From Candidatus Akkermansia intestinavium (GTDB taxonomy: Bacteria; Verrucomicrobiota; Verrucomicrobiia; Verrucomicrobiales; Akkermansiaceae), in assembly GCA_019115065.1 (NCBI GenBank), contig DXEH01000014.1, positions 10,683-74,682 on the forward strand: a stretch of 64,000 nucleotides of DNA, read 5' to 3'. Numbering within the stretch: position 1 is the stretch's first letter; each line of letters opens with the position of its first letter. The notes beneath the pieces are model-generated. The model ran no database searches. It had not been told where the DNA came from and saw nothing but the letters and a program-made list of their open reading frames with translations. Positions 34,307 to 63,925 of the stretch are shown piece after piece. The position numbers and the translations under genes were made by a program.

Positions 34307-34322
34307 GTTCTTTGTTGTGGGG

Positions 34323-34628
34323 TTAAGAAAAGAGATTGGGGATTTCTGGCGTGTCCATCTGCGAGGTTTCTCGCTCTTCCTTGCGGTCGAGTAGTTCGAG
34401 GAGCCGCCGCCGCACGCCGAATGTCGAGAAGTTTTGATTGAGCCAGCGCAGCAGGCCGGCTGCATCGCAGGTGACGGAGCGCAGAGTGCCGTATTTCGAG
34501 CTGCGGTATTGAATGTCGACTTCCCGGGCATTCGATGTCGGAAACGCACTGAGCTTGTATGATTGCCAGCCCAGCTTCCGGAAGATATCATTGAGGCTGG
34601 CAGCAGCCATGACGGATTTTGCATTCAT
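34323..34628 (-). CDS. Hypothetical phage early protein
   Basis: A 101-aa ORF packed tightly between the MuB-like gene and gam on the same strand. Confidence 0.45.
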   Translation of the reverse strand: MNAKSVMAAASLNDIFRKLGWQSYKLSAFPTSNAREVDIQYRSSKYGTLRSVTCDAAGLLRWLNQNFSTFGVRRRLLELLDRKEERETSQMDTPEIPNLFS

Positions 34629-34630
34629 GA

Positions 34631-35575
34631 TTATTCAGGGCGTCGAGCCATGCGGGATGCGGCGTCGATGAAGTCTGGCCAGGTGAGTTGACGTGCCTCC
34701 TGCTGGGCGACGCTTGCGGCGAGCTTGAGGCGGTGGATGAACTGCCCGAAGCAGGAACGGCGAGCCAGTGCACCGATCTGCCTCTGCGTATCGGAGTCCG
34801 GCTCCGGGAGGCCGTACGCCTCCCACACCGCGCGAATGTCGCGGTTTGTGGGCCACTCCGGCAGGATCTCCCATTCCCCGCGGCGTTCGAGCTGCGCAAG
34901 GCGTCCCGCATATGTGCCCTTGACAACGTCCTGCGCTCCCACGTCGGTGAGCACCAACATGAGCCCGCAACCGGAGCGGTCAAAGATCTCGCGGAGTGCG
35001 TCAAGCGCATCCACGCCCTGCCGCCTCGTGAGGGCGATATGCACCTCATCTGCAATAATCAGGTGGCGGGCGCAAACGTGCTCGCGGAGCAGAGAGAGCC
35101 CCTCCGAGAGCGTGCGAGCCTTGGGCAGACCTGCCGCCTCAAGCAGCTCGCACACCATGGAAGACACCGTGGGCATCGTTGGCATTCTGAAGAAGATTGT
35201 GGTCTCGGGGTAACGCATCTTGTATGCCTCGCAGGCCGTCGTCTTGCCGATTTGCGACTTACCCGCGAGCAGCATGCACAGGTGCGCGATCTTGGCGGAG
35301 TCTGCGGCCCGCCACACGCGCTGCATCATCTCCGTGGGGATGTGGGCAAGATCGACGCCGTCCACGCGCACAATGGCGGAGATGCGCTTGCGCTGCTCAT
35401 CGAGCTTGGCCAGCTGGTTGTCGGCGTTTCCGGCGTAGTTGCCCTCGAGCAAGGCGTTGAGCACCTTGTGCGAGATACCGAGTTCATCGGAGGCGCGGGT
35501 CTTGGTCATGCCCGGCTGCTCGATGTACTCCTTGAGCCAAATTCTGGCGGGATGGTTGAGTTGAGTGTTGTTCAT
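34631..35575 (-). CDS. MuB-like transposition ATPase (AAA+, N-terminal HTH)
   Basis: 314 aa with an HTH (MTKTRASDELGISHKVLNALLEG), Walker A (AGKSQIGKTT) and Walker B (HLIIADEVH). It is directly downstream of the transposase gene. Confidence 0.8.
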   Translation of the reverse strand: MNNTQLNHPARIWLKEYIEQPGMTKTRASDELGISHKVLNALLEGNYAGNADNQLAKLDEQRKRISAIVRVDGVDLAHIPTEMMQRVWRAADSAKIAHLCMLLAGKSQIGKTTACEAYKMRYPETTIFFRMPTMPTVSSMVCELLEAAGLPKARTLSEGLSLLREHVCARHLIIADEVHIALTRRQGVDALDALREIFDRSGCGLMLVLTDVGAQDVVKGTYAGRLAQLERRGEWEILPEWPTNRDIRAVWEAYGLPEPDSDTQRQIGALARRSCFGQFIHRLKLAASVAQQEARQLTWPDFIDAASRMARRPE

Positions 35576-35580
35576 GGTAA

Positions 35581-37623: not shown

Positions 37624-38447
37624 TGCCGGTTGGGATTGATACCGGGGAGATCCGGTTGTGTTTTCATGGCACGCAGACGGCGCGCGGCGTCCTCAAGCTT
37701 GGATGCCTGAGCCTCGCGGTCTGCCGACGTGGTGTAACGGCTGAATTCTTCAACAAAGGTATCCAAGCTGCACCAGAGCCCGCCGAAGTCAGAGACGATC
37801 TTGGCTCGCTGCTCCTCCCAGGAGGCAAAGGGCGTGGGGGCATCGACGGTGTCGTCGAGCACCTCGCTGAGCGTCGGCGCCGCGGGCTTTGCCGGAGCAA
37901 GCTCGAGGTAGGCTTGGCGGAGGGAATCGGCTGTGAGGTAGGGAGTCCAGAGGGCGGAGGAGGATTCGTTCGGGTCATCGTAAGCGCCGGAGAGGAGGTT
38001 GGCAGCATGCTCGCGCAACACCTGCACGCACTCGGCAGGGGTCATCCCCCCCTGCTGCTGCATGCGATCCTCTACGCCCTCCAAGACTTTGATGTAGGTG
38101 CGGGAGGTTTTGTACGTGAATGGCAGCAGGGTGCCGCCTGCCAATTCCATGGCGCGGGCTTGGTCTTCTGGTTTGCATTTATTCCCCTTGTAGAGGGCGA
38201 CAGCGGGGATGCCGTTGAGTCTGGCCTGTTGTTGCAGATCGCGCAGCAGGCAAGCGAGGTTGAGGGTAGCCAACAGGTGCACGCGGGCGGCCTCGCGGGC
38301 GGTATGCTCGGCATTGGTCATAATGCCGTGGTACATGCGGCAGAAGTGGAGGGTGTGGACGAGTTCGGCGCTTTGGCCGGTTCCGGCGGTGAGGGCCTCG
38401 GGCCGTGCAAGGCCCGGCCCGAGGCTCAGGGTTGTGTTTGTAGTCAT
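37620..38447 (-). CDS. Hypothetical phage early protein
   Basis: 275 aa. Its stop overlaps the transposase start (ATGA). Confidence 0.5.
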   Translation of the reverse strand: MTTNTTLSLGPGLARPEALTAGTGQSAELVHTLHFCRMYHGIMTNAEHTAREAARVHLLATLNLACLLRDLQQQARLNGIPAVALYKGNKCKPEDQARAMELAGGTLLPFTYKTSRTYIKVLEGVEDRMQQQGGMTPAECVQVLREHAANLLSGAYDDPNESSSALWTPYLTADSLRQAYLELAPAKPAAPTLSEVLDDTVDAPTPFASWEEQRAKIVSDFGGLWCSLDTFVEEFSRYTTSADREAQASKLEDAARRLRAMKTQPDLPGINPNRQ

Positions 38448-52815: not shown

Positions 52816-53284
52816 TTTCTACGCAGCGCGCTTGAGTGCGACTTATGCCTGGCAGGGCGAGTCTCCGGGGGAGTTGGAGCTGCTCTGTTTCGGCCGCACG
52901 CTATTGCGTGAGCTGCCACAGCGCACGTGGTCGTTGCCCTGTGATGAGCACCAGCTGGTGGGTAGTGCTTGGTCGCGTACGATTCCGAGTGGCAATGCTT
53001 CGTTGACTCTGGGGCTTCAACTGATGCTTGAGGCTCCTCGTGTGGCGCTGGTCGAGGCTCAGGCGCGACGCATGGAGTATGCGTTGTTGTCGCACCGCGA
53101 GGGGCTCTTGAGGTTGTCTGAGGCATATGACGGCGGGTGCCCTCTGCTTCAAACGACGTGGCGGGCGGTGGTCATGAGCTGCGAGGCTCATTTGTGCTCG
53201 CTTGATGATGCGCCTCCTCTGAGCGGAGCGGCGTGGGCCTTGCTGACTTTGGAGCTGAATTTAACACAACCGCAGGAGGATTGA
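52808..53284 (+). CDS. Hypothetical phage protein
   Basis: A 158-aa ORF overlapping both neighbours. Confidence 0.35.
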   Translation: MSDFYAARLSATYAWQGESPGELELLCFGRTLLRELPQRTWSLPCDEHQLVGSAWSRTIPSGNASLTLGLQLMLEAPRVALVEAQARRMEYALLSHREGLLRLSEAYDGGCPLLQTTWRAVVMSCEAHLCSLDDAPPLSGAAWALLTLELNLTQPQED

Positions 53285-54690
53285 TGATGCCGAAGGCGAG
53301 TGATTACATAGACCGCAAGGTGTCGGTGCCTTCGGAGATGAGGACACGGGAGTGGAATCACGTGGCCGCTCTGATCAAGGAGCGGGCCTTTTTCATGGCC
53401 AGTGTTGCCGATGCCGCCACGCTGGATAGGTTCCGCGCCGTGGCTCGAGCCGTAGCAGCGGGGGAGATGGGTGCCGGGCAGGCCCGCGATACCCTGCGAC
53501 GCTACCTGCGAGATACCGAGTACAAGGCCGCAGCCGGGCTGGAGGGCACGATCAAGGATTTATCGACGGCAAAGCGTATGCGCGCGACGCTGGATACGAA
53601 TGTGGCGATGGCGGCGGGCTGGGCTCGGCGGCAGCGTGCGCTGGCTGATCCGGCTCATCCCGGCTGGGAGTTGTTTCGCGCGGGGCAGGCGCAGAAGCCG
53701 CGTGACTGGGGGGCTCGCTGGCGTGCGGCGGCTGCTGCCGTGGGCTGGGTCGGCGTGGCACGAGGCGGTGCATGGGTGGCTCTGGTGAGTTCTCCCATCT
53801 GGGAGGAGCTCTCGGCGTTTGGCAATCCGTACCCCCCGTTTGATTGGGGGAGCCATATGCGGACGCGTGCGGTGGATGCGGCGACGTGTGAGCGCTTGGG
53901 GCTGCTGCCGAATGCCGCAGATGGGGGTGATGCGATGCCGGAGAGTCTCAATGCGAATGTGGAGGCGCAGGTGCGCCTGAGTGATGCAGCGCTGCTGCGC
54001 GAGTTGGATAAGGTGCTCTCGGGAGTGGCGACGCGGAGGGGCAATACGTATTACCTCAACGACGTGAACGGCACGCGGTCGGCGCGCTGGGATGAGATTG
54101 GCCCGATGATTGCCGGCCCTCTGAGCCCGGCGGCTCGTGCTGCCGGGGTGGAGCAGCGCCAGAAGCGTGCGGTGGAGATGTGGTGCCAGGATTCGGGTAA
54201 ATTTGCTCCGGACGCACATGGCAAAGGCGCCGCAACGCTGGACGAGAAGGAAGATCTGGCCCGGCTGGTGAACCGCATCGTGCCGACGGCATCCGGTGAT
54301 GAGGATGGCGGCCCGATCAGCCGGGCACTGCGGTTCCGCACGGCAGAACAGGCGCAGGCTATTCTCAGCCGCTTGCTGCAGGGGACTTATTCGTGCCGCC
54401 CGGGCTACATTGGAGAGAGCTGGAACAACAATGAGCTCACGGTGCGGCGATATGCCAAGGGGCAGACAAACATCATTCTGCGGTGCAGCAACTACCGCAG
54501 CCGTCGCAGGATTGACGGTCTGTACAAATACCTCAGGATTGACAAGCAGTATGAGGGGATACCGGTGGCCTCAGAGGGTGAAAGCATCATGCCGGCATCG
54601 GTACGCTTCGGCAAGGCCAAGCTGATCAGCAAGAAGAAGAATCGCCTGGGAGGTTACGACTATGAGGTTGCTGTCGAAGAAGAAAGCTGA
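53284..54690 (+). CDS. MuF (gp30/SPP1 gp7)-like head morphogenesis protein with extra C-terminal domain
   Basis: The start MMPKAS overlaps the previous stop. The block ...WELFRAGQAQKPRDW...FGNPYPPFDWGSHMRTRAV is collinear with the MuF PP.H.NCRC region but degenerate. About 200 additional C-terminal residues follow. Confidence 0.5.
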   Translation: MMPKASDYIDRKVSVPSEMRTREWNHVAALIKERAFFMASVADAATLDRFRAVARAVAAGEMGAGQARDTLRRYLRDTEYKAAAGLEGTIKDLSTAKRMRATLDTNVAMAAGWARRQRALADPAHPGWELFRAGQAQKPRDWGARWRAAAAAVGWVGVARGGAWVALVSSPIWEELSAFGNPYPPFDWGSHMRTRAVDAATCERLGLLPNAADGGDAMPESLNANVEAQVRLSDAALLRELDKVLSGVATRRGNTYYLNDVNGTRSARWDEIGPMIAGPLSPAARAAGVEQRQKRAVEMWCQDSGKFAPDAHGKGAATLDEKEDLARLVNRIVPTASGDEDGGPISRALRFRTAEQAQAILSRLLQGTYSCRPGYIGESWNNNELTVRRYAKGQTNIILRCSNYRSRRRIDGLYKYLRIDKQYEGIPVASEGESIMPASVRFGKAKLISKKKNRLGGYDYEVAVEEES

Positions 54691-54947: not shown

Positions 54948-55517
54948 ATGATTTTTTCGTTTGAAGCCATTGTGCCGCAAGGCCTCTTTCGCGCGGGCGC
55001 GGGGCTGCGCGAGGGGATTGCACGCAGCGCGGCGACGGAGCTGGAGAGCACGGTGAGCGGGCATTTTTACGAGATGCCCGGGCGTGAGTATTGGCGACGC
55101 GCCGGTGATCTGACGGAGGCACACCCGGAGCAGCCGGGGGTGGTGACGGTGAGTCAGCGGGGCGTGGCGTTGCATCTCTACGGCGGCACGGTTCACCCGG
55201 GTCGCGGGGATAGCTCCAAGACGGGGCAGCCGACAAAGTTGCTGGCGATCCCGGCGGACAAGGGGGTGCGCGAGTCGCCGATTTTTTACCCGGGGATGGT
55301 GTTCCGCCGGGTGCGGCGGGGCTACCCCCACTTGCGCGGTTTGCTGGTGCTGCCCGGGCAGCGGAGGCGGGGTGCGGCAGAGCCTCAGGGGCGTGTCATG
55401 TTCCGGCTGGTGGATCAGGCAACGATCCGCCCGAACCCTGAGGTGCTGCCGCCCGATGATCGGTTGGAGGATGCGATGCAGCGGGGCTTGGAGGCTTATT
55501 TACACGTTTTGAGATGA
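54948..55517 (+). CDS. Mu G-like virion morphogenesis protein (Phage_tail_S family)
   Basis: 189 aa. The block VALHLYGGTVHPG....KLLAIPAD resembles the conserved YAAIHQFGG...L.IP block. Confidence 0.55.
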   Translation: MIFSFEAIVPQGLFRAGAGLREGIARSAATELESTVSGHFYEMPGREYWRRAGDLTEAHPEQPGVVTVSQRGVALHLYGGTVHPGRGDSSKTGQPTKLLAIPADKGVRESPIFYPGMVFRRVRRGYPHLRGLLVLPGQRRRGAAEPQGRVMFRLVDQATIRPNPEVLPPDDRLEDAMQRGLEAYLHVLR

Positions 55518-58162
55518 TGAACAAGCAGGTTGATTTAACGCTGAGGGTGAATGCAGAGGTTGACTCTGCATCGTTTAACGCCGCACGCAATGCGGCGGCC
55601 GAGATTGCTCCGGCGGCGCCGGCGGAGCAGGTGTCTGCCGAGTCTGTGCCGGGGGGCGGCGAGGAGGCTGCCGCCGGGATTGAGTTGTTGGCTGCGGCTG
55701 AGGAGCAATTGGCTCAGGCTCGTGAGCAGGGCTGTGCTCTGGCTGATGAGTTGGCGCAGGCGGAGGGTGAGGTGTCGCAGCAGAGGGAGGCGGGCGAGAT
55801 GTCTGCCAAGCGTCAAGCTGCGGCGAGTGAGCAACAGGCACGTGCGGCCTCAAGGGAGAAGGAGGAGGAGGAGAAGCTGCTGCGAGCGATGGAGCTCGCA
55901 GGCAAGGGCCGCAATGCGCTTATTGCGGAGCTGGAGAGGTTGGCCAAGGCGCGACAGCAGGCGGCGAAGGCCGGCAATAAGGAGGAGTTTCAACGCCTGA
56001 CTCAACAGTCTGCGGAAACGCGCGAGGCGTTCGAGAAGCTCAATCAGGGACTTGAGCTGACCAACATTCAGATGACGCAGCAGGCGCAGATGGGCATGAT
56101 GGCCGGCCAGACGCTGGCGAATTTGGGCCGTGCCGCAGCAGGCGGGGCTGATGATGTGGCCGGCATGGCGGCTCAGGTGCTCTCTCTCGGGCAGGCGATC
56201 AAGGCGGGGTTGGGGCCGATTGGCTGGGCGATGATGCTGTTGGAGGGTGTGCAGGCGGCGTGGAATGCGTATTCCTCCGCGGTCAAGGCGCACCGCGAGG
56301 CGATGGAGGCCGAGTTGCGCATTGCTACGGAGATCAATGATGCTTTGGCCGGGCTCGCGAAGCGGCAGGCAGAACGCGAGTCTCAGGCGATTAGGGAGCG
56401 GTCGCAGTCTCGTCTCGCGGCGATGGACAAGGCGGTGGCTGATGAGAAGAAGGCTCGAGAGGCTCAAATGAATGAGGCTCTTGCCGCGGCTGAGATGGAG
56501 CTGGAATTGCAGGAGCAGCTGCGTGCGAGGCGGGAGGAGCTTTTGCAGGCGGAAGTGAGTGCCGGAACGAGGTCTCAGAAGTCGGCGGAGGAGGAGAGGC
56601 GACGCATGGCTGATGAGGCAGCTCGCCGCCGCGAGGAGCTTGAGACGCAGCGGCGCCGAGGGCAGATGGAGCTTAGGCGCCAGGATGCCGAGAGTGCCGA
56701 GGGCCTGCTGGATGCGGCGCGCCGGGCGGATGCGGAACACCGACAGCAGATGGGTGGTTTTGCGGATGCGATCGGGGCGCTGGATGAGAGCCGTGCCCGC
56801 CGAGATCTGGCCGAGTGGGATGATTTGCAGGCGACGGCTAAGGGCTTGCAACAGCAGATTGATGAGATAGGTCAGGCTAAGGAGAAGGCAAAGGAGTGGT
56901 TTGACGACGAGGAGACACTTGAGCGTCTGCGTTCCCAAGAGCGTAATCTTGAGATGCAGATAAAGGGGATTGAAGCTCGCCAGCAGACTCTTCTGGACAG
57001 TTACGATGAGCAGATTGCCGCAGCTCGCGGCATGACGGGCAGCGCCAAGCTTTCGGCCCGCGATGCTCTGGAGTTTGCGCTGGGCCAAAAGGATCTGGGG
57101 GCTCAGCTGGCTGATGAGGTGAGCGCTCGGGAGGCATCTGCAAAGGCCGCCCGGCAGTCTGCCACTGCGGCCTTGCGCGATGAGCAGCTGCGCTCTCAGT
57201 ATCAGGAGAGGCTGCGTTCGGAGAGCCGAGAGCTGGAGGAGCGCACGCGCCGCATGAACCAGCAGGCGGAGGCTCAGCAGCAGTTGCTCGAAAAGATTCG
57301 CACGAGTCTCAGCGGCATCGATGGCCAGTATCGCACGATGCAGTCATACGAACGCAAACGCTCCCTGAGTGAAGAGGAGATGATGAGGGCGGATGCAGCG
57401 ATGCTGGCGGCAAAGGAGTCAAAGTTGGTGAATCTGCTGATGTCAGCTCAGGGCGACGCTGAGTTGACACGCGAGATTCAAGAGCGATTGACGGCAACGC
57501 GGCGCGAACTCGGTTATCTCTACAAGGCATGGGAGGCTAATGTGGAGGCGAGCCGCCGCTGGCTGAGGCAGCTTGAGCCTCCGGAGTTGCAGAGCAAAAG
57601 CAAGTTTGCGAGTGCTCAACTCAAGCGTCTGGAGAAGGCCTATGCTGCCGCGGCTAAGCGTGTGGAGCGGGCATCGTCGCGCGGTGATGACAAGTCCGTG
57701 GAGCGAGGGCAGCGCTACATGTCGACCTTGGAGCGCAATATCAAGAGGTTGGCCAAGGGGGGGGATGAGACGGAGCAGTTTTTCTCTCGCACGCGCCGAT
57801 CGCTCGATGTGATGACGCGAGGGATGAACCCTTCCGGGGCTTCTGCGGTTGCTCATCCGACGTCCGTGCAGGGACGCAGGGCGGCGCCTACTCTGACTCG
57901 CCGGCCGGCGGCAAGCGCGTTGGCGCCTGCGGTAGTTCAGCCTCAGGAGCAGGCGTCTCTCGCTTCTGTGGTGCAGCACGGAGGGGCTGCTGCGAGCAGC
58001 CAAGAGTCTATGGCACGAGACCTCGCACGGCTTGTCGATGTGATGGACCGTGTGGCCGGCGCGGCGACGCGCGGAGCTGAGGCTGCCAGCAGCGGCCTGG
58101 CCGGTCTGTCGAAGCGCCTCTCGGTGATGGAGTCAGCTGTTAATGGGATTCGACGCGTATGA
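55514..58162 (+). CDS. Tape-measure-like coiled-coil protein
   Basis: 882 aa, very rich in A/E/Q/R/L heptad-like sequence. It is the largest late gene and lies after the tube gene. Confidence 0.6.
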   Translation: MMNKQVDLTLRVNAEVDSASFNAARNAAAEIAPAAPAEQVSAESVPGGGEEAAAGIELLAAAEEQLAQAREQGCALADELAQAEGEVSQQREAGEMSAKRQAAASEQQARAASREKEEEEKLLRAMELAGKGRNALIAELERLAKARQQAAKAGNKEEFQRLTQQSAETREAFEKLNQGLELTNIQMTQQAQMGMMAGQTLANLGRAAAGGADDVAGMAAQVLSLGQAIKAGLGPIGWAMMLLEGVQAAWNAYSSAVKAHREAMEAELRIATEINDALAGLAKRQAERESQAIRERSQSRLAAMDKAVADEKKAREAQMNEALAAAEMELELQEQLRARREELLQAEVSAGTRSQKSAEEERRRMADEAARRREELETQRRRGQMELRRQDAESAEGLLDAARRADAEHRQQMGGFADAIGALDESRARRDLAEWDDLQATAKGLQQQIDEIGQAKEKAKEWFDDEETLERLRSQERNLEMQIKGIEARQQTLLDSYDEQIAAARGMTGSAKLSARDALEFALGQKDLGAQLADEVSAREASAKAARQSATAALRDEQLRSQYQERLRSESRELEERTRRMNQQAEAQQQLLEKIRTSLSGIDGQYRTMQSYERKRSLSEEEMMRADAAMLAAKESKLVNLLMSAQGDAELTREIQERLTATRRELGYLYKAWEANVEASRRWLRQLEPPELQSKSKFASAQLKRLEKAYAAAAKRVERASSRGDDKSVERGQRYMSTLERNIKRLAKGGDETEQFFSRTRRSLDVMTRGMNPSGASAVAHPTSVQGRRAAPTLTRRPAASALAPAVVQPQEQASLASVVQHGGAAASSQESMARDLARLVDVMDRVAGAATRGAEAASSGLAGLSKRLSVMESAVNGIRRV

Positions 58163-59874
58163 CAATCTTGGATACGGCAACGGTCGGTGATTTGGAGGGG
58201 GTTATTTCAGCGGTGCTGACGGAGTCGGGCCGCGACGTTTCATCCCTGGAGCTTTCGTTCGTGGGCTTCGGGCCGGATTGGCTGGCATGGATGGAGCCGG
58301 TGTCTCTTCTGCATCACGGACGCGTGATTTTTCACGGCAAGGTGACGAGACTGTCGAGGACTAATGCGGGTGGGGCGGTGTCGACACAGGCGACGGTGAG
58401 CAATTTCTTCTGGTTGCTCAATCGCCAGACGCTGGCGCAGCAAATCGCTGAGCTCAAGGCCGGCGATGCCGAGGCCGGGTCCCTGCGGCTTACCGGCCAG
58501 ATTGGTGCAGCCGGCTCGCAGGCCGGCAGCGATGTGACGTGGGCTTCGGTTGCTGACGGTATGGCCTTGCAGGCCGACGGATGGACGGCGCCGGCGCAGA
58601 TCGCACCCGGCGGTGGCGGCAGCCGGTTGACGGTTGCGGCGTCCGGGCATGTGTCCGGGCGCGTCTGCTGGGCTGTTACGGACAAGCTCATCACGTCGGC
58701 GTCCGCGCTCTGGAAGCTGCGCCGGCGTGAGGCTGATGTGTATTTCATCGTAGATTATGCCTCCGGCACGCTGACGGCTACGGCGATTGACGATATGCCG
58801 AGCATGACGCTCGACACGCAGCGACAGGAGGTGCTCGCTTGCGATGGTATCGAGCCCCAGTATGAGTCGCAGATTACGGGCGTGGCCATTGCCTACACGT
58901 CTTCGACGGGCCGCGTGCGTGTTTACACGTGGCCGGCAGGGTTGGATATGAGTGCCGACGGGGTGAAGGTGTTTGCGCTTTCGGGGGATTACTACGTGTC
59001 GTCTTGGTCAAAGGTGGCTCGGCAGTATTACGAATCGGCGTCTGTGCTTCAGTGGGGCGGCTCTGTGAGTGTGATGATGGACTCTCTGGAGGAGAGTCCC
59101 TTGGGTTATTGTCTGAATCTCGTTGGCCCGGGTACCCATGATAGCTGGCATGAGATGCGCGCCGCGGTTTCCGGGGTGACGTGGGATTTCCTCGCACGCA
59201 CGGTATCCATCAGTTTGGGGCGTGACTTTTCCGACCCCGACTTCGCAGATGCTCAGCCGCTGGAGGATGCGGGGCAGGATGGCGGCGAGAGCCCGGATGA
59301 GGGTGATGAATCTGACGGGTCGGGCGAGTCCGGCGACTCGGGATCGGATGATTATTCGGCGTCGTTTGGCGGGTCGTACGATACGGAAGGGTCGCTTCCG
59401 GTGGTGCCCTCTGATTCTTGGGAAACGGGCTCCTATGTGGAGCCGGGGCCACCCCTGTTCTCTTCCGGCAGCGATGAAGTCGGAAGTGAGGTTTCAGGCA
59501 GCGAGGAAGCCGAGGGCGGAAGTTCGGGTGGCGGCGGAGACCCGGAGCCCGGTGGCTCGACGCCTTCCGGCTCATCGGCAGAAGGAGGAGTCTGTGGGGA
59601 TGACTGCTCTTGCAGGGTGGAGCTCAAGGCCCTGACTGCTCGTGTGGCTGAGCTGGAGCGCAAAGTTAAACAGCTTGAAGCCCGACCGGCCGGAGGATTC
59701 ACGATTGATGAGATCGAGCAATTGATCGCGGAGGGTATCCGCCAGCTCGAATGGTCCGTGGATGTGCAAGGCCTCATCGAGCAGACCTATCGCGGCAACC
59801 TGACGATAACCTCGTCAGGTCAGGGGCCTGTCGGCAGCGGACAAGTAGACACCTTTGTGGCATATGGAGAGTGA
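58159..59874 (+). CDS. Tail tip/baseplate-like structural protein with acidic low-complexity linker and C-terminal coiled coil
   Basis: 571 aa, overlapping the tape-measure stop. It contains DEGDESDGSGESGDSGSDDY... followed by ELKALTARVAELERKVKQLE. Confidence 0.4.
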   Translation: MTILDTATVGDLEGVISAVLTESGRDVSSLELSFVGFGPDWLAWMEPVSLLHHGRVIFHGKVTRLSRTNAGGAVSTQATVSNFFWLLNRQTLAQQIAELKAGDAEAGSLRLTGQIGAAGSQAGSDVTWASVADGMALQADGWTAPAQIAPGGGGSRLTVAASGHVSGRVCWAVTDKLITSASALWKLRRREADVYFIVDYASGTLTATAIDDMPSMTLDTQRQEVLACDGIEPQYESQITGVAIAYTSSTGRVRVYTWPAGLDMSADGVKVFALSGDYYVSSWSKVARQYYESASVLQWGGSVSVMMDSLEESPLGYCLNLVGPGTHDSWHEMRAAVSGVTWDFLARTVSISLGRDFSDPDFADAQPLEDAGQDGGESPDEGDESDGSGESGDSGSDDYSASFGGSYDTEGSLPVVPSDSWETGSYVEPGPPLFSSGSDEVGSEVSGSEEAEGGSSGGGGDPEPGGSTPSGSSAEGGVCGDDCSCRVELKALTARVAELERKVKQLEARPAGGFTIDEIEQLIAEGIRQLEWSVDVQGLIEQTYRGNLTITSSGQGPVGSGQVDTFVAYGE

Positions 59875-60094
59875 TTTGGCGGTTCGTATCAAAACGCTGG
59901 CGGCCGTGATGACTCAAGTGCAGCTGGCGCAAGCGAGTGTGGAGCACAGCAATCGCGATGCTCTCCTCAGCCCCTCGGAATGGTATGTTGATGCAGCATG
60001 GACGCTGCGCCACCGGCTCACGACGTCGGCCTCATGGGCGGTGCAGCCTGGCCGGGCAGCATTAACCCTCAACTATACCGCAGTGGTGATATGA
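59864..60094 (+). CDS. Small hypothetical protein, translationally coupled on both sides
   Basis: The MESDLAVRIKTL... start overlaps the preceding stop. Its own stop overlaps the glycosyltransferase ATG (ATGA). Confidence 0.35.
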   Translation: MESDLAVRIKTLAAVMTQVQLAQASVEHSNRDALLSPSEWYVDAAWTLRHRLTTSASWAVQPGRAALTLNYTAVVI

Positions 60095-61722
60095 CGGATG
60101 ACTCTCCCATTTGGCGGCAGCCTCAGTCCACACGGCGCTTGCCGGCACCCCGCCGGTGTGCTCTGCCGGCGCGCCGATCGACGGACGGGACGGACAGGGC
60201 AATACCGGCGCAGGCTGCCATAGCGGTGCCTCCCGCGTGTCGGCGTGTGCTGATCATTTCCAACGTCGCTGATTTGGATCCGGAGGGTATAGGCGTGCGT
60301 GCCGGCGATTTGTGCGTGCATCTGAACCGAGCTCGCTGGTTCGATGAGCTTCGGCGGGTGCCGGGGACTTGGCATGTGCTGCTGGTGCGCTCCGGGCGTT
60401 CTGGGGTAGGTGATCGCATGTGGTTTGAGCCTCCCTGCAAGGATGGATTTTCGCAGGTGTTCTATATCTACGATGCAGCGTTGCGCGTGGGCCGGGCATG
60501 GTGGTCTCGCTACTGCCGGGACAATCCCGGGCAATGCCCGACGACCGGTTACATTGCTGCCAATCTGGCGCGTGAGACCGCACCTCATTTGCCGCTTGTG
60601 CTCGTCGGCTTTGATCCTCTTCGGTCTCACGGTTCGCCGCGCTGGCGAGGGCATGCCTGGGCCTACGAAGCAGACGTTTACCGACGTAAGGCTTTTCGTC
60701 TCTTATCGCCGAGTTCCTCCCGCGCCGCGATAAGTGACGAGTGCAGCGCAGGCTTGCGCCGCTTTGCTCTGCTGATGGCTTCTTATCGACGGCCGGAAGA
60801 TCTGCAACGCCAGATTCTCGCCATGATGGATCTGGATTATCCGCCGGAGCTCTACCACGTCTTTGTTGCAGCCAAGGGGATATCGGAGTTCCATTTCCGC
60901 GCTTTCCTGCTCCCTCTGGTGCAGCATTTCATCGACGCTGGACGCCTCACATTGCGCAGGTGCCCCAATCGAGGACAACTATCCAACCTGCTTGATACCG
61001 TCCGGGGTTGTGATACGTCTGGTTTCGACCTGTTCTGCAAAATCGACGATGACGATATCTACTCGCGGCTGTACCTGCGCACCGTCAACGCCTTTTTCGA
61101 TACGCTCCCTCCGGGATCATCATGCGTGTACAAACACCTGCCATGGGTGCTGCGGCGTGTAGACGCCGTGCCGCATCCCTGTCGGTCGTCTCTGCGCTGC
61201 TGCGGACCGACTCAGGTCTGGCCGCAGCACGTGATGGCACAGATGTGGAGAGGGGAGACGGATGCCGATTTTCGACGCGAGGTCAACCTCCGTTTCGGTA
61301 TCGATTCCGCCGACGTTTCCTTTTCGGAAGATCGATTCATCCTGGGGCTGATGGGTGAGCGGGGAGTTAGGGACATCGGTCCCTTTGCTCGGCGCTATGC
61401 AACGACTCCGCTGGTGACGGTGCAGTTCAGCAATCGATCAGTGATGCGAGGGGGCTTGGTTGATCCGAAGTGGCGCCGCTCTCTCCGTGACTCCACAGGG
61501 GTGGGGGATGAGCCCGTTGAGGATGTGGTGAGCGTTCTGCGCAGTTCCGGCGATGTCGAGACCATCTTGCTGAGGGGCAAACAGTCGCTCAGTCTCAAAA
61601 CGCATGCTGTCGGCGAGGTCCTTGAGTACGCAGCAACTGGCCTGACCATTCGCTGGCAACACGGACTCTCCGAAGAATTTTCTTTAACCAACAACGGAAT
61701 GTATGAATTGCAAAAAACATGA
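60091..61722 (+). CDS. Two-domain glycosyltransferase (sialyltransferase-like N-domain + GT-A/GT2-like domain)
   Basis: 543 aa from the ATG at 60091. The N-domain carries VLIISNVADLDPEGIGVRAGDLCVHLNRA, PTTGYIAANLARE..LVLVGFDP and H.WAYE, which resemble sialyl motifs L/S/VS (GT29/GT42 type). The second domain carries FALLMASYRRPEDLQRQILAMMDLDYP and a DXD-type motif, KIDDDDIY. No TM segment is present. Confidence 0.55.
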   Translation: MTDDSPIWRQPQSTRRLPAPRRCALPARRSTDGTDRAIPAQAAIAVPPACRRVLIISNVADLDPEGIGVRAGDLCVHLNRARWFDELRRVPGTWHVLLVRSGRSGVGDRMWFEPPCKDGFSQVFYIYDAALRVGRAWWSRYCRDNPGQCPTTGYIAANLARETAPHLPLVLVGFDPLRSHGSPRWRGHAWAYEADVYRRKAFRLLSPSSSRAAISDECSAGLRRFALLMASYRRPEDLQRQILAMMDLDYPPELYHVFVAAKGISEFHFRAFLLPLVQHFIDAGRLTLRRCPNRGQLSNLLDTVRGCDTSGFDLFCKIDDDDIYSRLYLRTVNAFFDTLPPGSSCVYKHLPWVLRRVDAVPHPCRSSLRCCGPTQVWPQHVMAQMWRGETDADFRREVNLRFGIDSADVSFSEDRFILGLMGERGVRDIGPFARRYATTPLVTVQFSNRSVMRGGLVDPKWRRSLRDSTGVGDEPVEDVVSVLRSSGDVETILLRGKQSLSLKTHAVGEVLEYAATGLTIRWQHGLSEEFSLTNNGMYELQKT

Positions 61723-61744
61723 AATAAGAAAGAGAACCCGCCAC

Positions 61745-62503
61745 ATGGGTACACTGGTGATCCGCTTGGTGCCGAAGGACGTGGCTCGTGACTTGGTCGT
61801 TCGTGGGCATTACAGCCACAAGTGGCTCGCCTCCTTCGGCATCCACAACTTCGGCATCTTTCGTGAGGGTGCAGAGACGGATGGAGACTGCTTGGGCGTT
61901 GCGAGTTTCGGCTACATGAAGACTCCCAAGGCTCACGTCATCGAGAGCTCTGTCCTCGGCGGATGGATGATTGAGCTCAACCGGATGTGGATCAGCGATG
62001 AGCTCGGACACAACGCCGAGACCATCCTGCTTGGCGCGAGCTTGAAGCTGCTGCGCTCGCTCGATCCCACGATCGTGGCAGTACAGTCATTCGCGGACGG
62101 ACGTGTCGGGTGCGGGACCATTTACAAGGCAGCCAATTTCCGCTATTTCGGCTACCACTGGACGACGTTTCTGCAAAATCGGCGCTCCCGTGAAATCACC
62201 CACGAGCAGATCCTCACGTGCTCCACCTGTGCCAGTGGCTTCGTGCGAACAAACGCCGCCCTGCTGTCGGGCGATATGGATATCTTCCGCGCCAAGACGC
62301 ACCGCTACATCTACTTCCTGCACCCCTCGGCCAAGTTCGTGGGCAACGGGAAAGAGCAGCCGTACCCGCCCTACGAGAAGGGCACGGAACCAGCCATCTG
62401 GTACATCAACCCCGAGCGCCTGAGGCCCCGGCTCATAGCAGCCATGGACACCCTTCTGGAGCGCTGGCCGCACAAGCGCGGCGTGTCGGCCGGCGGGGAA
62501 TGA
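61745..62503 (+). CDS. mom: Mom-like DNA (adenine) modification protein, GNAT-like fold
   Basis: LVIRLVPKDVARDLVVRGHYSHKW...MIELNRMWISDELGHNAETILLGASLKLL...IVAVQSFADGRVGCGTIYKAANFRYFG...KTHRYIYF is collinear with the Mu Mom family pattern. It is the rightmost phage gene, as in Mu. An alternative start is at 61703. Confidence 0.7.
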   Translation: MGTLVIRLVPKDVARDLVVRGHYSHKWLASFGIHNFGIFREGAETDGDCLGVASFGYMKTPKAHVIESSVLGGWMIELNRMWISDELGHNAETILLGASLKLLRSLDPTIVAVQSFADGRVGCGTIYKAANFRYFGYHWTTFLQNRRSREITHEQILTCSTCASGFVRTNAALLSGDMDIFRAKTHRYIYFLHPSAKFVGNGKEQPYPPYEKGTEPAIWYINPERLRPRLIAAMDTLLERWPHKRGVSAGGE

Positions 62504-62510
62504 AGAAAGC

Positions 62511-62532
62511 CACCGGGGCCGAAGCCCCGGTG
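62511..62532 (+). terminator. 9-bp GC hairpin after mom
   Basis: CACCGGGGC and GCCCCGGTG form the stem with a CGAA loop. There is no T-run. Confidence 0.35.
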
Positions 62533-62668
62533 ACCAACTCTAAACCGACAGAATCGGTACCATCCGTCGATGGCGGCGTCATTGTATCGCGGCAAAGATC
62601 GAATTTCAAGAGAAAATCCGGTGGCCATTTGGGCTTGGGGTCTCGAGCTGTTTTGTTGAAACCGTTAT

Positions 62669-63925
62669 TCACCCCAGTGGCGTCACGATATCGTTATTCA
62701 CCCTCACTCTGAGACCTTGCATCAGCCTTCGGCGATAGATTCGTCGGTTGAGCAAAAAACGCTGCCGGAGCTTTGCAAAGAGGTAGGGGACATCCTGCAA
62801 ACCACATGCCTTGCTGACGATTCGCTGAACGGATGCGTTCATCGACTCGATTTTTGCGGAGTTCATCCTGCATCTGATCGTGTTGAGGATGTCGGGAAGA
62901 GCCTTGGCCACACCCCTTGCAAATCGCACGATTCGGCTGATTTTCGAAGCGATAGCCATTCTCACCCAACGGATCATCGACCACGTGGCGACACGCTCAT
63001 GACGCTGCCGAAAGACCGCGCGTAGCTCTTCTTTGAGTGTGTAAGCGGTGTAGAGCTTGCGATTGCGCGCCATGAGTTCCCGGAGTTTACCTTCGCCGCT
63101 TGCATCCAAGTTCTCAGGGCTCTTGAGCAACAGATAACGCGAGTTCTTCAAGAGCTGCAAGTCTGCGTAAGAGGCTCCCTTGATGGCTGCCCTCCTCATT
63201 TTGTCGACGACGGCGTTCATGTTGGCTATGAGGTGATAAGGGTCGTAACATATCCGGATATCAGGGATGTTCGCCAGGGCTGAGGCGCGGTAGGCGTTTC
63301 CGCGATCGATGCCGATGCAATGGATGGATTGCCGCTGCTCGGCTGAGAGAGATTTGAAGAACCCGTCTAGCGCCGTCCTATCTTTACCGGGCGCCATGTA
63401 AAGCGGTTCCCCACTGCGGGCATTGACGACCAAGGTTACAAAGCCGCAAGTTGGTCCAAGATATTTCTCATCAACGACTATGGATTCAAGACCGTCTTTC
63501 GTCGGCTCCGGTTGTGATTGCCTGAGCACCTCCCTGTCAATGCGTCTGACGGTTGAAGCATCGATCCCGTACTTGTAGCCCAAGCTCTCAGCCGGCGCAT
63601 AGACGAACTCGGCCGAGACCGTCTGCATAAAGGAGCGCGTGAAGTGCATCGTAGGGTGGAAGCTGGGCGGTCGGAGCGATGAGAACCGACCGCAGCATGG
63701 ACAAGAGCCGCAGTATACCTCAGCATGTAAAGTGACCTGCCTGCCTTCGACGGGTAAAGCTTGTGCGTAAGTCTCTCTAAGCGAGTGCTTTATTAACCTT
63801 GCAGAGCAGTGGGGACATGAAAATTTGTATCTTTGGTCAATTACCAGCTTGACCTTGATGCTCTTTTCAGCAACAATAGCGCTGCTGACTCTCCAACCTT
63901 GACCTCCGTATAACGAGTTTAGCAT
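62669..63925 (-). CDS. ISL3-family transposase
   Basis: 418 aa. It has an N-terminal zinc-finger region (CPHC...CGSCPCCG) and a DDE domain (VVDEKYLG..., GIDRGNAYR..., NSAKIESMNASVQ). Confidence 0.85.
   Translation of the reverse strand: MLNSLYGGQGWRVSSAIVAEKSIKVKLVIDQRYKFSCPHCSARLIKHSLRETYAQALPVEGRQVTLHAEVYCGSCPCCGRFSSLRPPSFHPTMHFTRSFMQTVSAEFVYAPAESLGYKYGIDASTVRRIDREVLRQSQPEPTKDGLESIVVDEKYLGPTCGFVTLVVNARSGEPLYMAPGKDRTALDGFFKSLSAEQRQSIHCIGIDRGNAYRASALANIPDIRICYDPYHLIANMNAVVDKMRRAAIKGASYADLQLLKNSRYLLLKSPENLDASGEGKLRELMARNRKLYTAYTLKEELRAVFRQRHERVATWSMIRWVRMAIASKISRIVRFARGVAKALPDILNTIRCRMNSAKIESMNASVQRIVSKACGLQDVPYLFAKLRQRFLLNRRIYRRRLMQGLRVRVNNDIVTPLG

What the first reader, a model, noticed from the sequence alone, without database searches (positions are those of the whole stretch)
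60091..61722. Soluble two-domain glycosyltransferase with a sialyltransferase-like N-domain fused to a GT-A (DXD) domain, operonic with mom
The N-domain blocks are VLIISNVADLDPEGIGVRAGDLCVHLNRA, PTTGYIAANLARETAPHLPLVLVGFDP and HAWAYE. They parallel sialyl motifs L, S and VS of GT29 enzymes and the equivalent blocks of bacterial GT42 (CstII-type: ..IAGNGPSL...DVFRCN.. and ..SG......AL.....YL.G.DF). The second domain has a GT2-like start and the motif KIDDDDIY. No TM helices are present, unlike Gtr-type serotype-conversion enzymes. The gene is translationally coupled to a small upstream ORF and ends about 20 nt before the mom-like gene. There are two readings. It could be lysogenic conversion of a surface glycan, possibly sialylation-type mimicry. 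Or it could take part with Mom in a sugar-containing DNA hypermodification. Either would be unusual for a Mu-like phage.
Basis: partly seen in the sequence, partly recalled or inferred. Interest (0 to 1): 0.7.

Follow-up and report, generated by a model that had tools for sequence, protein, structure and literature searches.

The report
Phage two-domain glycosyltransferase beside mucin-like fibre
A Mu-like prophage carries a soluble enzyme with two sugar-transferring domains, one from an undescribed family that loosely resembles sialyltransferases; it always follows a gene for a fibre-like protein with a mucin-like stalk, so it probably sugar-coats that phage protein rather than phage DNA.

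Summary
A 543-aa soluble ORF (60091-61722) overlaps an upstream 76-aa ORF by ATGA and ends 22 nt before a true Mom gene, the last gene of a transposable prophage.

Residues ~225-440 form a GT-A domain with a conserved DDD motif (Foldseek E ~1e-6 to TarS, TarP and similar).

Residues ~46-207 are an autonomous ~165-aa domain (AF2 pLDDT 93). It has no Pfam, PHROG or NCBIfam model and no significant PDB match. About 70 clusters carry it, and in 48 of the 72 proteins typed it is fused to GT31-, GT32-, GT11- or GT2-like domains. The sialyltransferase link is only suggestive. The best TM-score is to ST6GALNAC2 with CMP (0.50, E 0.19). GT29 is the only recurring weak Pfam hit. The hhalign match over motifs L, S and III has P 0.04. 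The Cys pair that defines GT29 is missing.

The new result is synteny. In 10 of 11 phage lineages the enzyme follows a 571-aa-like protein with an acidic Ser/Thr-rich linker, often via the small ORF. The downstream gene varies (Mom, methylases, others).

My best reading (0.42) is late cytoplasmic O-glycosylation of that protein. Host-glycan modification is second (0.25). DNA glycosylation is unlikely (0.05).

The parts
55514..58162 (+). 882-aa Ala/Glu/Gln/Arg-rich coiled-coil protein ('882-like'). It usually travels with the module. Its role is unknown (tape-measure-like or an internal virion protein).
   Evidence: ORF. No Pfam or NCBIfam hit. Homologs lie next to the module in L045, L006, L044, L003, L052, L054 and L056.
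58159..59874 (+). 571-aa fibre-like protein and candidate acceptor. It has a conserved N-terminal ~365 aa, then an acidic Ser/Gly-rich low-complexity linker (residues ~370-480), a Cys motif with a coiled coil, and a small C-terminal domain.
   Evidence: Homologs (30-55% identity over the N-terminal ~365-410 aa) lie directly upstream of the N-domain enzyme in L042, L044, L045, L006, L003, L052, L053, L054 and L056. All carry a low-complexity acidic S/T/G/P-rich linker, for example TTTWDD repeats in L044 and L045 and poly-Ser in L052. Weak PHROG hits are to tail fibres. No signal peptide or TM segment is evident in the sequence.
59864..60094 (+). Conserved 76-aa ORF of unknown role (possibly an adaptor or chaperone). 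It overlaps both neighbours.
   Evidence: Start and stop overlaps. It is 39-47% identical to ORFs at the same position in L043, L054 and L056 and 99% identical in L007 and L041. ORFs of similar size occupy this position in L006 and L045 but gave no detectable similarity.
60091..61722 (+). 543-aa soluble two-domain glycosyltransferase (the finding).
60226..60711 (+). N-domain (residues ~46-207). An autonomous ~165-aa alpha/beta domain from an undescribed family, with a sialyltransferase-like motif pattern. Invariant residues are N58, D73, R100, G153, F174 and E193. N79 and H188 are nearly invariant.
   Evidence: Exhaustive search finds 70 representative clusters. AF2 gives pLDDT 93.1 and pTM 0.89. 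No PDB match reaches E<=1e-3, and the best TM-score is to GT29 6apl_F. No Pfam, PHROG or NCBIfam model matches.
60763..61410 (+). GT-A (GT2-like) domain, residues ~225-440, with the KIDDDD DXD motif at residues 317-322 (61039-61056).
   Evidence: AF2 pLDDT is 80-94 over most of the domain core, residues ~225-350. Foldseek PDB E-values are 7e-7 to 4e-5 against a Leptospira GT, PcManGT, TarS, TarP, K4CP, RmlT, SpsA and GtrB. Pfam Glyco_tranf_2_3 gives only E 0.055 and 13.9 bits against a 27-bit cutoff. K317 and D319-321 are nearly invariant.
61519..61719 (+). C-terminal beta-rich domain (residues ~477-543), conserved together with the GT-A domain. Its role is unknown (acceptor binding or oligomerisation).
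   Evidence: Seven predicted strands with pLDDT ~66-88. The W..W..E.F....DG.Y.L pattern is conserved in P0002-P0012.
61745..62503 (+). Mom-family DNA adenine modification enzyme, the last gene of the prophage.
   Evidence: Pfam Mom E 1e-52 and PHROG 1384 E 5e-36. Identity with two other insertions of the same phage ends at 62557 (L041) and 62591 (L007).
62508..62535 (.). 12-bp GC-rich hairpin just after the mom stop codon, the likely end of the late transcript.

Best explanation
The gene encodes a cytoplasmic, late-expressed, bifunctional glycosyltransferase. It is the enzyme part of a conserved three-gene phage module: a fibre-like protein with a mucin-like acidic Ser/Thr-rich stalk (571 aa), a small 76-aa protein, and the enzyme.

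Proposed mechanism. During lytic growth the whole late operon is translated by coupled ribosomes. The enzyme then O-glycosylates the Ser/Thr-rich linker of the 571-aa protein before or during virion assembly. The two catalytic domains add successive sugars. The GT-A/DXD domain would use a metal and an NDP-sugar. The N-domain would work without a metal, by analogy with sialyltransferases, with H188 as the candidate base and possibly a CMP-activated sugar as donor.

Shown here: the domain architecture, the GT-A fold, conservation of the catalytic-looking residues, the operon structure, the synteny, and the low-complexity linkers.

Inferred: that the N-domain is catalytic, its donor, that the 571-aa protein is the acceptor, and that this protein is part of the virion.
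For: (1) The N-domain enzyme lies directly downstream of a 571-like gene in 10 of 11 lineages that have enough upstream sequence. This holds even where the module has moved into the head-gene region (L003, L053) or where the neighbours are rearranged (L054, L055).
(2) Every 571-like protein has a low-complexity acidic S/T/G/P-rich linker right after its conserved N-terminal domain. Forty-residue windows reach 50-55% Ser+Thr in L044, L045 and L052.
(3) The N-domain is constant while its partner domains are shuffled (GT32-like, GT31-like, GT11, GT2-like). This is the pattern expected of enzymes that build variable oligosaccharides.
(4) Start and stop codons overlap from the 882-aa ORF through to the enzyme. 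There is no promoter-like site on the + strand in 55000-62503 and no terminator before mom, so expression is late and lytic.
(5) No TM helix is present, and no signal peptide is evident in the enzyme or in the 571-aa protein by inspection.
(6) Precedents exist. Mycobacteriophages Che8 and Rita carry glycans on capsid proteins and encode their own transferases (PMC11256854). Serine-rich repeat adhesins are glycosylated in the cytoplasm by sequential soluble enzymes, including the two-domain dGT1, which joins a then-novel GT-D fold to a GT-A domain (PMC5063993).
Against: No experiment supports it, and no phage of a Gram-negative host is known to me to glycosylate its virion. The virion location of the 571-aa protein is inferred only from position, architecture and weak tail-fibre PHROG hits. 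Acidic S/T/G-rich linkers also occur as plain flexible spacers; the window's own linker is Ser/Gly/Asp/Glu-rich (30% S+T at most) and L054's is mostly Asp/Gly/Pro. In one lineage (L037/L038) the upstream gene is 882-like rather than 571-like. Adjacency of a receptor-binding protein and a receptor-modifying enzyme would give the same synteny. Catalytic activity of the N-domain is unproven.
Confidence: 0.42

Rival explanations
1. The enzyme modifies a host envelope glycan (LPS O-antigen or core, LOS, or capsule) on the cytoplasmic face of the membrane. This would change the phage receptor, giving superinfection exclusion or protecting progeny from adsorbing to debris. It would stay next to the receptor-binding fibre gene because the two co-evolve.
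For: The GT-A plus C-terminal part is 35-41% identical to proteins P0002-P0012, which sit in multi-transferase clusters with GT4, GT11, a GT31/32 fusion and a polysaccharide pyruvyl transferase. Top fold matches include TarP (known to me as the prophage-encoded wall-teichoic-acid transferase of S. aureus) and TarS, RmlT and GtrB. From my own knowledge, glycan-conversion genes lie next to the tailspike gene in P22 and epsilon15. The host is Gram-negative, since a T6SS cluster lies beside the prophage.
Against: The gene is translationally coupled inside a late operon with no promoter-like site, so expression in the lysogen is unlikely. There are no flippase, polymerase or Gtr-type membrane partners and no TM segment. 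The supposedly cellular homolog clusters themselves lie in mobile-element-like contexts next to 1700-2000-aa RHS-repeat proteins, not in classical wzx/wzy or ABC-transporter loci.
Confidence: 0.25
2. The enzyme works with Mom on phage DNA, adding sugar to the Mom product (N6-carbamoylmethyl-adenine) or to another base to give a glycosylated hypermodification that blocks restriction.
For: The enzyme sits immediately upstream of a DNA-modifying gene in seven lineages. Mom follows it in the window and in L043; an N6_N4 DNA methylase follows directly in L006, L045, L044 and L056, and two genes further on in L055. It is in the same late transcript as mom.
Against: The downstream enzyme is not constant. 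It is Mom, or one of at least two methylase families only 27% identical to each other, and these leave different products, so there is no common acceptor. In L003, L053 and L037 no DNA-modifying gene is adjacent. Both genes simply lie at the right end of these transposable phages, where Mu also keeps mom. Partner domains such as GT11, GT31 and GT32 and three- or four-domain fusions point to oligosaccharide assembly. The top 50 Foldseek matches of the full-length model are all GT-A or nucleotidyltransferase folds and include no phage DNA glucosyltransferase. No pathway for a hydroxymethylated or otherwise activated base was seen in the ORFs I scanned.
Confidence: 0.05
3. Only the GT-A domain is catalytic. 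The N-domain would be a non-catalytic nucleotide-, acceptor- or partner-binding module, or an enzyme of another class, and the target could be something else entirely (a host protein or a small molecule).
For: No significant match to any solved structure or curated family. The link to GT29 is statistically weak.
Against: Polar residues are invariant or nearly so (N58, D73, N79, R100, H188, E193). Stand-alone copies of 165-190 aa exist. The domain is a constant companion of transferase domains. All three features argue for an autonomous enzyme working in the same pathway.
Confidence: 0.2

Closest known systems
GT29 sialyltransferases (e.g. human ST6GALNAC2, ST6GAL1); GT-A variant 2 fold with sialylmotifs L, S, III and VS
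   Same: It is the best TM-score match for the N-domain model (6apl_F with CMP, TMq 0.50) and the only recurring weak Pfam hit. The conserved blocks align in the same order: SNV...GD.c.H.NrA with VVSSAG...HDAVLRFN.AP, PTTGF...L.GF.P with PPSSG...VYEFLPS, and GHAW with motif III. The literal pattern H188-x4-E193 equals the motif VS consensus H-x4-E given in PMC8433944. No DXD motif is present, which fits metal-independent catalysis.
   Different: None of the statistics is significant on its own (E 0.19; P 0.04; HHalign probability 1.3%). The domain is ~165 aa against ~270 aa, so the lid and acceptor regions are missing. The invariant disulfide cysteines of motifs L and S are absent. The protein is cytoplasmic and phage-encoded, not Golgi-resident. 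It is unclear whether H188 corresponds to motif III or to motif VS.
GT42 bacterial sialyltransferases (Campylobacter CstII)
   Same: The general order matches: a first strand followed by a small-residue loop, then a (T/S)(T/S)G helix, then a strand ending in G-x-D/F.
   Different: hhalign gives P 0.32 against the verified CstII sequence. No GT42 chain appears among the top 50 Foldseek matches, and there is no Pfam CST-I hit.
dGT1 of the Fap1 serine-rich-repeat glycosylation pathway (DUF1792 GT-D domain plus GT-A domain; PMC5063993)
   Same: Both are soluble cytoplasmic two-domain enzymes that join a non-classical N-terminal transferase domain to a C-terminal GT-A/DXD domain with an extra C-terminal module. 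Both are encoded next to a Ser-rich repeat substrate and add successive sugars.
   Different: No sequence or fold match to DUF1792 was found. dGT1 belongs to Gram-positive adhesin biogenesis with aSec export, not to a phage.
Virion glycosylation in mycobacteriophages (Che8, Rita; cited in PMC11256854)
   Same: Phage-encoded soluble transferases near the end of the genome, with glycans attached to the phage's own structural proteins.
   Different: The hosts are Actinobacteria and the phages are not transposable. The targets are capsid proteins. There is no N-domain family and no mucin-like fibre. In the present case no glycan has been shown.
Prophage-encoded soluble GT-A enzymes that remodel host glycans (S. 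aureus TarP), and Gtr-type seroconversion
   Same: The GT-A domain matches TarP, TarS and GtrB folds at E ~1e-5, and the enzyme is prophage-borne.
   Different: TarP acts on wall teichoic acid in a lysogen. GtrABC needs membrane proteins. Here there are no TM segments, the context is a late operon, and the host is Gram-negative.

Membership tests
GT29 (Pfam PF00777 Glyco_transf_29) | Profile match above the family's gathering score | tested here: not met
   The window's N-domain gives no hit. Only 4 of 50 family members hit, with best E 0.12.
GT29 | Sialylmotifs L and S with their invariant cysteine pair (disulfide), as defined in PMC8433944 | tested here: not met
   Residues like those of motifs L and S align collinearly. 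The cysteine positions, however, hold R/V and a non-Cys residue in the N-domain consensus.
GT29 | Motif VS H-x4-E containing the catalytic His, and motif III (H/y)-Y-(Y/W/F/h)-(D/E/q/g) | tested here: inconclusive
   H188-AWAY-E193 fits H-x4-E, with H at least 90% conserved and E invariant. However, hhalign places H188 on motif III, and the spacing from motif S (14 residues) is closer to motif III than to VS.
GT29 / GT42 fold (GT-A variants 1 and 2) | Seven-stranded parallel sheet with a CMP-binding site; significant structural similarity | tested here: inconclusive
   The model is confident (pLDDT 93) and has ~7-8 strands. Its best TM-score is 0.50 to 6apl_F, but with E 0.19 and probability 0.69, and no hit reaches E<=1e-3.
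GT29 / GT42 | Use of a CMP-activated nonulosonic or ulosonic acid donor | not testable with these tools
   This needs an enzyme assay. No CMP-sugar synthesis genes were seen in the loci examined.
GT42 (CstII type) | Detectable sequence-profile similarity | tested here: not met
   hhalign of A2 against CstII gives P 0.32. The CstII sequence was verified against 1RO7.
GT-A fold, GT2-like | GT-A Rossmann-like fold | tested here: met
   Foldseek PDB E-values of 7e-7 to 4e-5 against many GT-A/GT2 enzymes, with pLDDT 80-94 over most of residues ~225-350.
GT-A fold, GT2-like | Conserved DXD metal-binding motif | tested here: met
   K317 and D319-D321 are nearly invariant among 13 relatives.
GT2 (Pfam Glyco_tranf_2_3) | Profile match above the gathering score | tested here: not met
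   13.9 bits against a 27-bit cutoff, E 0.055. So the domain has the GT-A fold but is not a curated GT2 member.
Mom (downstream gene) | Pfam PF25680 match above the gathering score | tested here: met
   179 bits, E 1e-52, covering 200 of 202 profile positions.
Gtr-type seroconversion enzymes | Polytopic membrane protein | tested here: not met
   Maximum Kyte-Doolittle score over 19 residues is 1.31.
Phage DNA glycosyltransferases (T4 alpha- and beta-glucosyltransferase type) | Fold or sequence similarity to known DNA glucosyltransferases, plus a constant DNA-base partner pathway | tested here: not met
   None appears among the top 50 Foldseek matches of the full-length model. The neighbouring DNA-modifying gene varies or is absent.
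Phage virion protein glycosylation (mycobacteriophage type) | Phage-encoded soluble transferases together with a Ser/Thr-rich segment in a phage structural protein | tested here: met
   The enzyme is soluble. The adjacent 571-like proteins carry S/T-rich linkers. Their structural role is only inferred.
Phage virion protein glycosylation | A glycan demonstrably attached to the virion protein | not testable with these tools
   This needs mass spectrometry or glycan staining of virions.

The most novel reading that the evidence does not exclude
The ~165-aa N-domain founds a new family of minimal, cytoplasmic transferases with a sialyltransferase-type fold. Together with shuffled GT31-, GT32-, GT11- or GT2-like domains, it would build a mucin-type O-glycan, possibly capped with a CMP-activated sugar, on the mucin-like stalk of a fibre of transposable phages, some recovered from gut samples. 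That would be the first virion glycosylation system in phages of Gram-negative bacteria and a form of mucin mimicry.
Probability: 0.18. Interest if true: 0.8.

Novelty: new variant of a known kind. Interest (0 to 1): 0.58.

Why it matters
If the module glycosylates a virion fibre, it would extend phage self-glycosylation from mycobacteriophages to transposable phages of Gram-negative bacteria.

It would also give a concrete gene set (571-like protein, 76-like protein, enzyme) that can be tested by simple co-expression.

It could explain how some such phages might shield their virions or bind mucus, although only some of the related loci are known to come from gut samples.

Independently of function, the N-domain is a well-folded, widespread and unannotated companion of glycosyltransferase domains. 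It is a candidate new CAZy family, and characterising it could yield a compact new transferase scaffold.

The result also corrects a tempting misreading: adjacency to mom here reflects gene position at the phage end, not a shared DNA-modification pathway.

Tried and rejected
Searches that found nothing:
- PHROGs and NCBIfam for the enzyme, and both plus Pfam for the 76-aa, 571-aa and 882-aa proteins, gave no match; Pfam for the enzyme gave only the weak sub-threshold GT2 hit noted above.
- tblastn against 50,697 GenBank phages with the enzyme, the N-domain and the 571-aa protein gave no match.
- A sequence search of the PDB with the enzyme gave only chance hits.

Spurious hits:
- The N-domain profile against the PDB hit only DegP and S2P PDZ domains through a short 'GD.vi..N' stretch. 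I rejected this because the predicted fold is an alpha/beta sheet domain, not a PDZ domain.
- The 571-like profile hit only the mucin-like region of MAdCAM-1, which is a compositional match.

- The word-indexed search with the N-domain alone missed known relatives. The exhaustive search was needed.
- The search for related loci with the 50-sequence alignment failed because no stretch was conserved enough. A 10-sequence alignment worked.
- The full-length AF2 model with a shallow alignment left the N-domain unresolved.
- BFVD gave only uncharacterised viral proteins.

Other checks:
- GT42 membership was rejected.
- I considered whether the prophage matches the Mom-carrying group A prophages of Desulfovibrio piger (PMC12724379). 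Those have Com plus Mom preceded by an integrase, which is a different arrangement.
- The host species could not be identified.
Full report
**1. What is in the sequence**

It runs from ATG 60091 to TGA 61720-61722 and encodes 543 aa.
- Its ATG overlaps the TGA of a 76-aa ORF (59864-60094) as ATGA.
- That ORF starts 11 nt before the stop of a 571-aa ORF (58159-59874).
- The 571-aa ORF overlaps the stop of an 882-aa ORF (55514-58162) as ATGA.
- Twenty-two nucleotides after the enzyme's stop codon comes the ATG (61745) of a 252-aa protein. This protein is an unambiguous Mom (Pfam PF25680 E 1e-52; PHROG 'Mom-like DNA modification protein' E 5e-36).
- On the + strand there is no sigma-70-like promoter between 55000 and 62503, and no terminator between the enzyme and mom. 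A 12-bp GC-rich hairpin follows mom.
- The enzyme has no transmembrane-like segment (maximum Kyte-Doolittle 1.31).

**2. Genomic setting**

The left half of the window is a host type VI secretion cluster, so the host is a Gram-negative bacterium.

From about 33 kb onwards lies a transposable, Mu-like prophage.
- Early genes are on the minus strand: a Gam-like protein, a MuB-like AAA ATPase, and a 680-aa probable transposase.
- Late genes are on the plus strand: terminase, Mu-type portal, protease and major head protein.

Two other metagenomic copies of the same phage (L041 and L007, ~98% nucleotide identity) are collinear with the window only up to 62557 (L041) and 62591 (L007). Beyond that point their flanks differ. 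So mom is the last gene, as in Mu, and the phage has inserted at three different sites. The ISL3 transposase at 62669-63925 lies outside the prophage.

**3. The second domain**

An AlphaFold2 model of the whole protein is confident for most of residues ~225-350 (pLDDT 80-94). Foldseek against the PDB gives E-values of 7e-7 to 4e-5 for classical GT-A/GT2 enzymes: a Leptospira transferase, PcManGT, TarS, TarP, K4CP, RmlT, SpsA and GtrB. K317 and D319-D321 (KIDDDD) are nearly invariant in relatives.

The Pfam GT2 models are missed (13.9 bits against a 27-bit cutoff). The domain is therefore a divergent GT-A/DXD domain. A conserved beta-rich C-terminal module of ~65 aa follows it.

This part (residues ~225-543) is 35-41% identical to proteins P0002-P0012, which carry a different N-terminal domain. 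These homologs sit in clusters with GT4, GT11, a GT31/32 fusion and a pyruvyl transferase. The clusters lie next to RHS-repeat proteins of 1700-2000 aa, in contexts that also look mobile: a serine recombinase, DUF2800 and an M15 peptidase.

**4. The N-domain**

An exhaustive HMMER search with residues 44-230 found 70 representative clusters (61 with E<=1e-10). They define an autonomous domain of ~165 aa.
- N58, D73, R100, G153, F174 and E193 are invariant.
- R52, G72, N79, W111, P114, W137, P150, P168, L171, G173, P176, H188, W190 and Y197 are nearly invariant.
- No Pfam, PHROG or NCBIfam model covers the domain.

- In 22 the domain is C-terminal to a GT32-like domain.
- In 28 others it is combined in various orders with GT31-like, GT32-like, GT11 or GT2-like domains, giving proteins with up to four domains.
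- In 22 it stands alone, and many of these are fragments.
- The window's order (N-domain, then GT2-like domain, then C-terminal module) occurs only in the window and its 98% twin P0001.

With a 50-sequence alignment, AlphaFold2 gives a confident alpha/beta model (pLDDT 93.1, pTM 0.89).

**5. Is the N-domain sialyltransferase-like?**

Evidence for:
- No PDB chain reaches E<=1e-3. The match with the highest TM-score and probability is human ST6GALNAC2 bound to CMP, a GT29 enzyme (TMq 0.50, probability 0.69, E 0.19).
- Among the 50 members scanned one by one against Pfam, Glyco_transf_29 is the only family hit by more than two members (4 members, best E 0.12).
- A profile-profile comparison with an ST6Gal alignment gives score 20.8 and P 0.041. 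I built that alignment from database proteins retrieved with a verified ST6GAL1 query.
- With relaxed settings the alignment is collinear. It pairs the invariant N-domain residues with the conserved GT29 positions of motif L (SNV / GD.c.H.NrA with VVSSAG / HDAVLRFN.AP), motif S (PTTGF...L.GF.P with PPSSG...VYEFLPS) and motif III (GHAW with CHYY).
- H188-x4-E193 also fits the motif VS consensus H-x4-E cited in PMC8433944.

Evidence against:
- The HHalign probability is 1.3%, and 2 of 60 column shuffles score as high.
- The L/S disulfide cysteines that define GT29 are absent.
- The domain is about 100 residues shorter than a GT29 catalytic domain.
- CstII (GT42) is not detected (P 0.32).
- The best BFVD matches are uncharacterised viral proteins.

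Verdict: a sialyltransferase-type (GT-A variant) fold and a metal-independent mechanism are the best available guess, at roughly 60% in my judgement. The domain is not a member of GT29 or GT42 as those families are defined.

**6. The decisive new observation: synteny**

I examined every locus I could fetch that encodes the N-domain.

Upstream gene:
- A homolog of the window's 571-aa protein (30-55% identity over the N-terminal 365-410 aa) lies directly upstream in the window/L007/L041 lineage and in L042, L044, L045 (same as L040 and L046), L006, L003, L052, L053, L054 and L056.
- A small ORF often lies between the two genes. It is homologous to the 76-aa ORF in L043, L054 and L056.
- The only exception with enough upstream sequence is L037/L038, where the upstream gene is 882-like.
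- The pair stays together even where the module lies between the portal and protease genes (L003), just before the protease and capsid genes (L053), or where a neighbouring gene has moved (L054, L055).

Downstream gene, which is not constant:
- Mom in the window and L043.
- An N6_N4 DNA methylase, from at least two families only 27% identical, directly after the enzyme in L006, L045, L044 and L056, and two genes further on in L055.
- Unrelated genes in L003, L053 and L037.

**7. The upstream protein**

All 571-like proteins share the same layout:
- a conserved N-terminal domain;
- then an acidic low-complexity linker rich in Ser, Thr, Gly and Pro, which differs in each lineage;
- then a CxC...KW coiled-coil segment and a small C-terminal domain.

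Examples of the linker:
- TTTWDD/TTTWEE repeats in L044 and L045, with 50-55% Ser+Thr over 40 residues;
- SSSSSSSE runs in L052;
- GSGTASGSG repeats in L056;
- an SGESGDSGSDDYSASFGGSYDTEGS... stretch in the window.

There is no signal peptide. Weak PHROG hits are to tail fibres. The architecture is that of a fibre with a mucin-like stalk.

**8. Interpretation**

The most economical reading is that the enzyme and the 571-like protein form an enzyme-substrate pair. A late-expressed cytoplasmic enzyme, whose two domains act in turn, would O-glycosylate the Ser/Thr-rich stalk of a phage fibre-like protein.

This reading explains four things:
- the constant pairing;
- the late-operon coupling;
- the lack of membrane partners;
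- the rapid shuffling of transferase domains around a constant N-domain.

It has precedents. Mycobacteriophages Che8 and Rita glycosylate their capsid proteins (PMC11256854). Streptococcal serine-rich repeat adhesins are glycosylated by soluble enzymes including the two-domain dGT1 (PMC5063993).

I put this reading at 0.42. The rivals are:
- Modification of a host envelope glycan (0.25). It is favoured by the homologs in transferase clusters and by TarP-like folds. It is weakened by the late, promoter-less context.
- The N-domain is non-catalytic, or the target is something else (0.2).
- DNA glycosylation together with Mom (0.05). It is weakened by the variable or absent DNA-modifying neighbour and by the oligosaccharide-type domain sets.

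**9. Novelty and limits**

Phage-encoded glycosyltransferases, Mom at the right end of Mu-like phages, and virion glycosylation are all known kinds of thing.

What appears to be new:
- The N-domain family itself. It is unannotated in the curated libraries searched here and has no relative among solved structures or GenBank phages.
- Its possible descent from the sialyltransferase fold.
- The conserved module of fibre-like protein, small ORF and enzyme in transposable phages of Gram-negative hosts.

Everything functional is inference from sequence, predicted structure and synteny. The host species, the sugar donors, the virion location of the 571-aa protein and the activity of the N-domain are all untested.

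Noticed in passing
window 1992-28686: A host type VI secretion cluster lies directly left of the prophage region: TssF, ClpV, two VgrG-like proteins of 1171 and 1239 aa, TssK, a 1678-aa TssM and TssA.
   Followed up: partly
window 33243-38447 (- strand) and 38601-62503 (+ strand): The transposable prophage has a divergent, BcepMu-like layout, with early genes (Gam-like, MuB-like AAA, a 680-aa probable transposase with no Pfam hit) facing away from the late genes. Few tail genes can be recognised; I found no recognisable sheath, and the only tape-measure candidate is the unannotated 882-aa coiled-coil protein.
   Followed up: partly
window 61723-61744 and upstream of mom: There is no Com-like zinc-finger ORF before mom, unlike Mu and the Mom-carrying prophages of Desulfovibrio piger (PMC12724379 supplement). 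The 22-nt spacer is purine-rich (AAGAAAGAGAA). Mom translation may therefore be controlled differently here.
   Followed up: no
window 62557-62591; L041 12339; L007 5886: Three near-identical copies of the phage (~98% nucleotide identity) diverge from each other within ~90 bp after mom. This marks the right end of the prophage and shows three independent insertion sites.
   Followed up: partly
window 62669-63925 (-): An ISL3-family transposase (DDE_Tnp_ISL3, E 2e-44) lies just outside the prophage end. A promoter-like site on the minus strand at 62609-62581 points towards mom.
   Followed up: no
L049 13706-18835; L051 11735-17731; L036 10185-14480: The clusters that hold homologs of the enzyme's C-terminal part are followed by very large proteins: RHS-repeat proteins of 1709 and 1998 aa, one with poly-Ser runs, and in L036 a 1431-aa protein with 22% Ser+Thr. 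Contexts contain a serine recombinase, DUF2800 and an M15 peptidase. This may be a second kind of pairing between transferases and a large Ser/Thr-rich protein.
   Followed up: partly
L003 1745-3715; L053 5651-7642: Related Mu-like phages fuse PBECR2 or PBECR3 nuclease-like domains to the portal or to the Mu-type protease (a polyvalent-protein style). In these phages the fibre-plus-enzyme module lies inside the head-gene region.
   Followed up: no
window 53233-54690: The 485-aa protein has a weak PHROG hit to 'minor head protein and DNA pilot'. Its homolog lies after the enzyme in L054 and L055 but before the 882-like gene in L045, L056 and the window. Gene order around the module is therefore fluid.
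   Followed up: partly
BFVD A0A5B8IQ07 (Mimiviridae sp. ChoanoV1): The only significant structural neighbour of the N-domain model is an uncharacterised 206-aa giant-virus protein (E 6e-6, TMq 0.58). The fold may therefore be spread across very different viruses.
   Followed up: no
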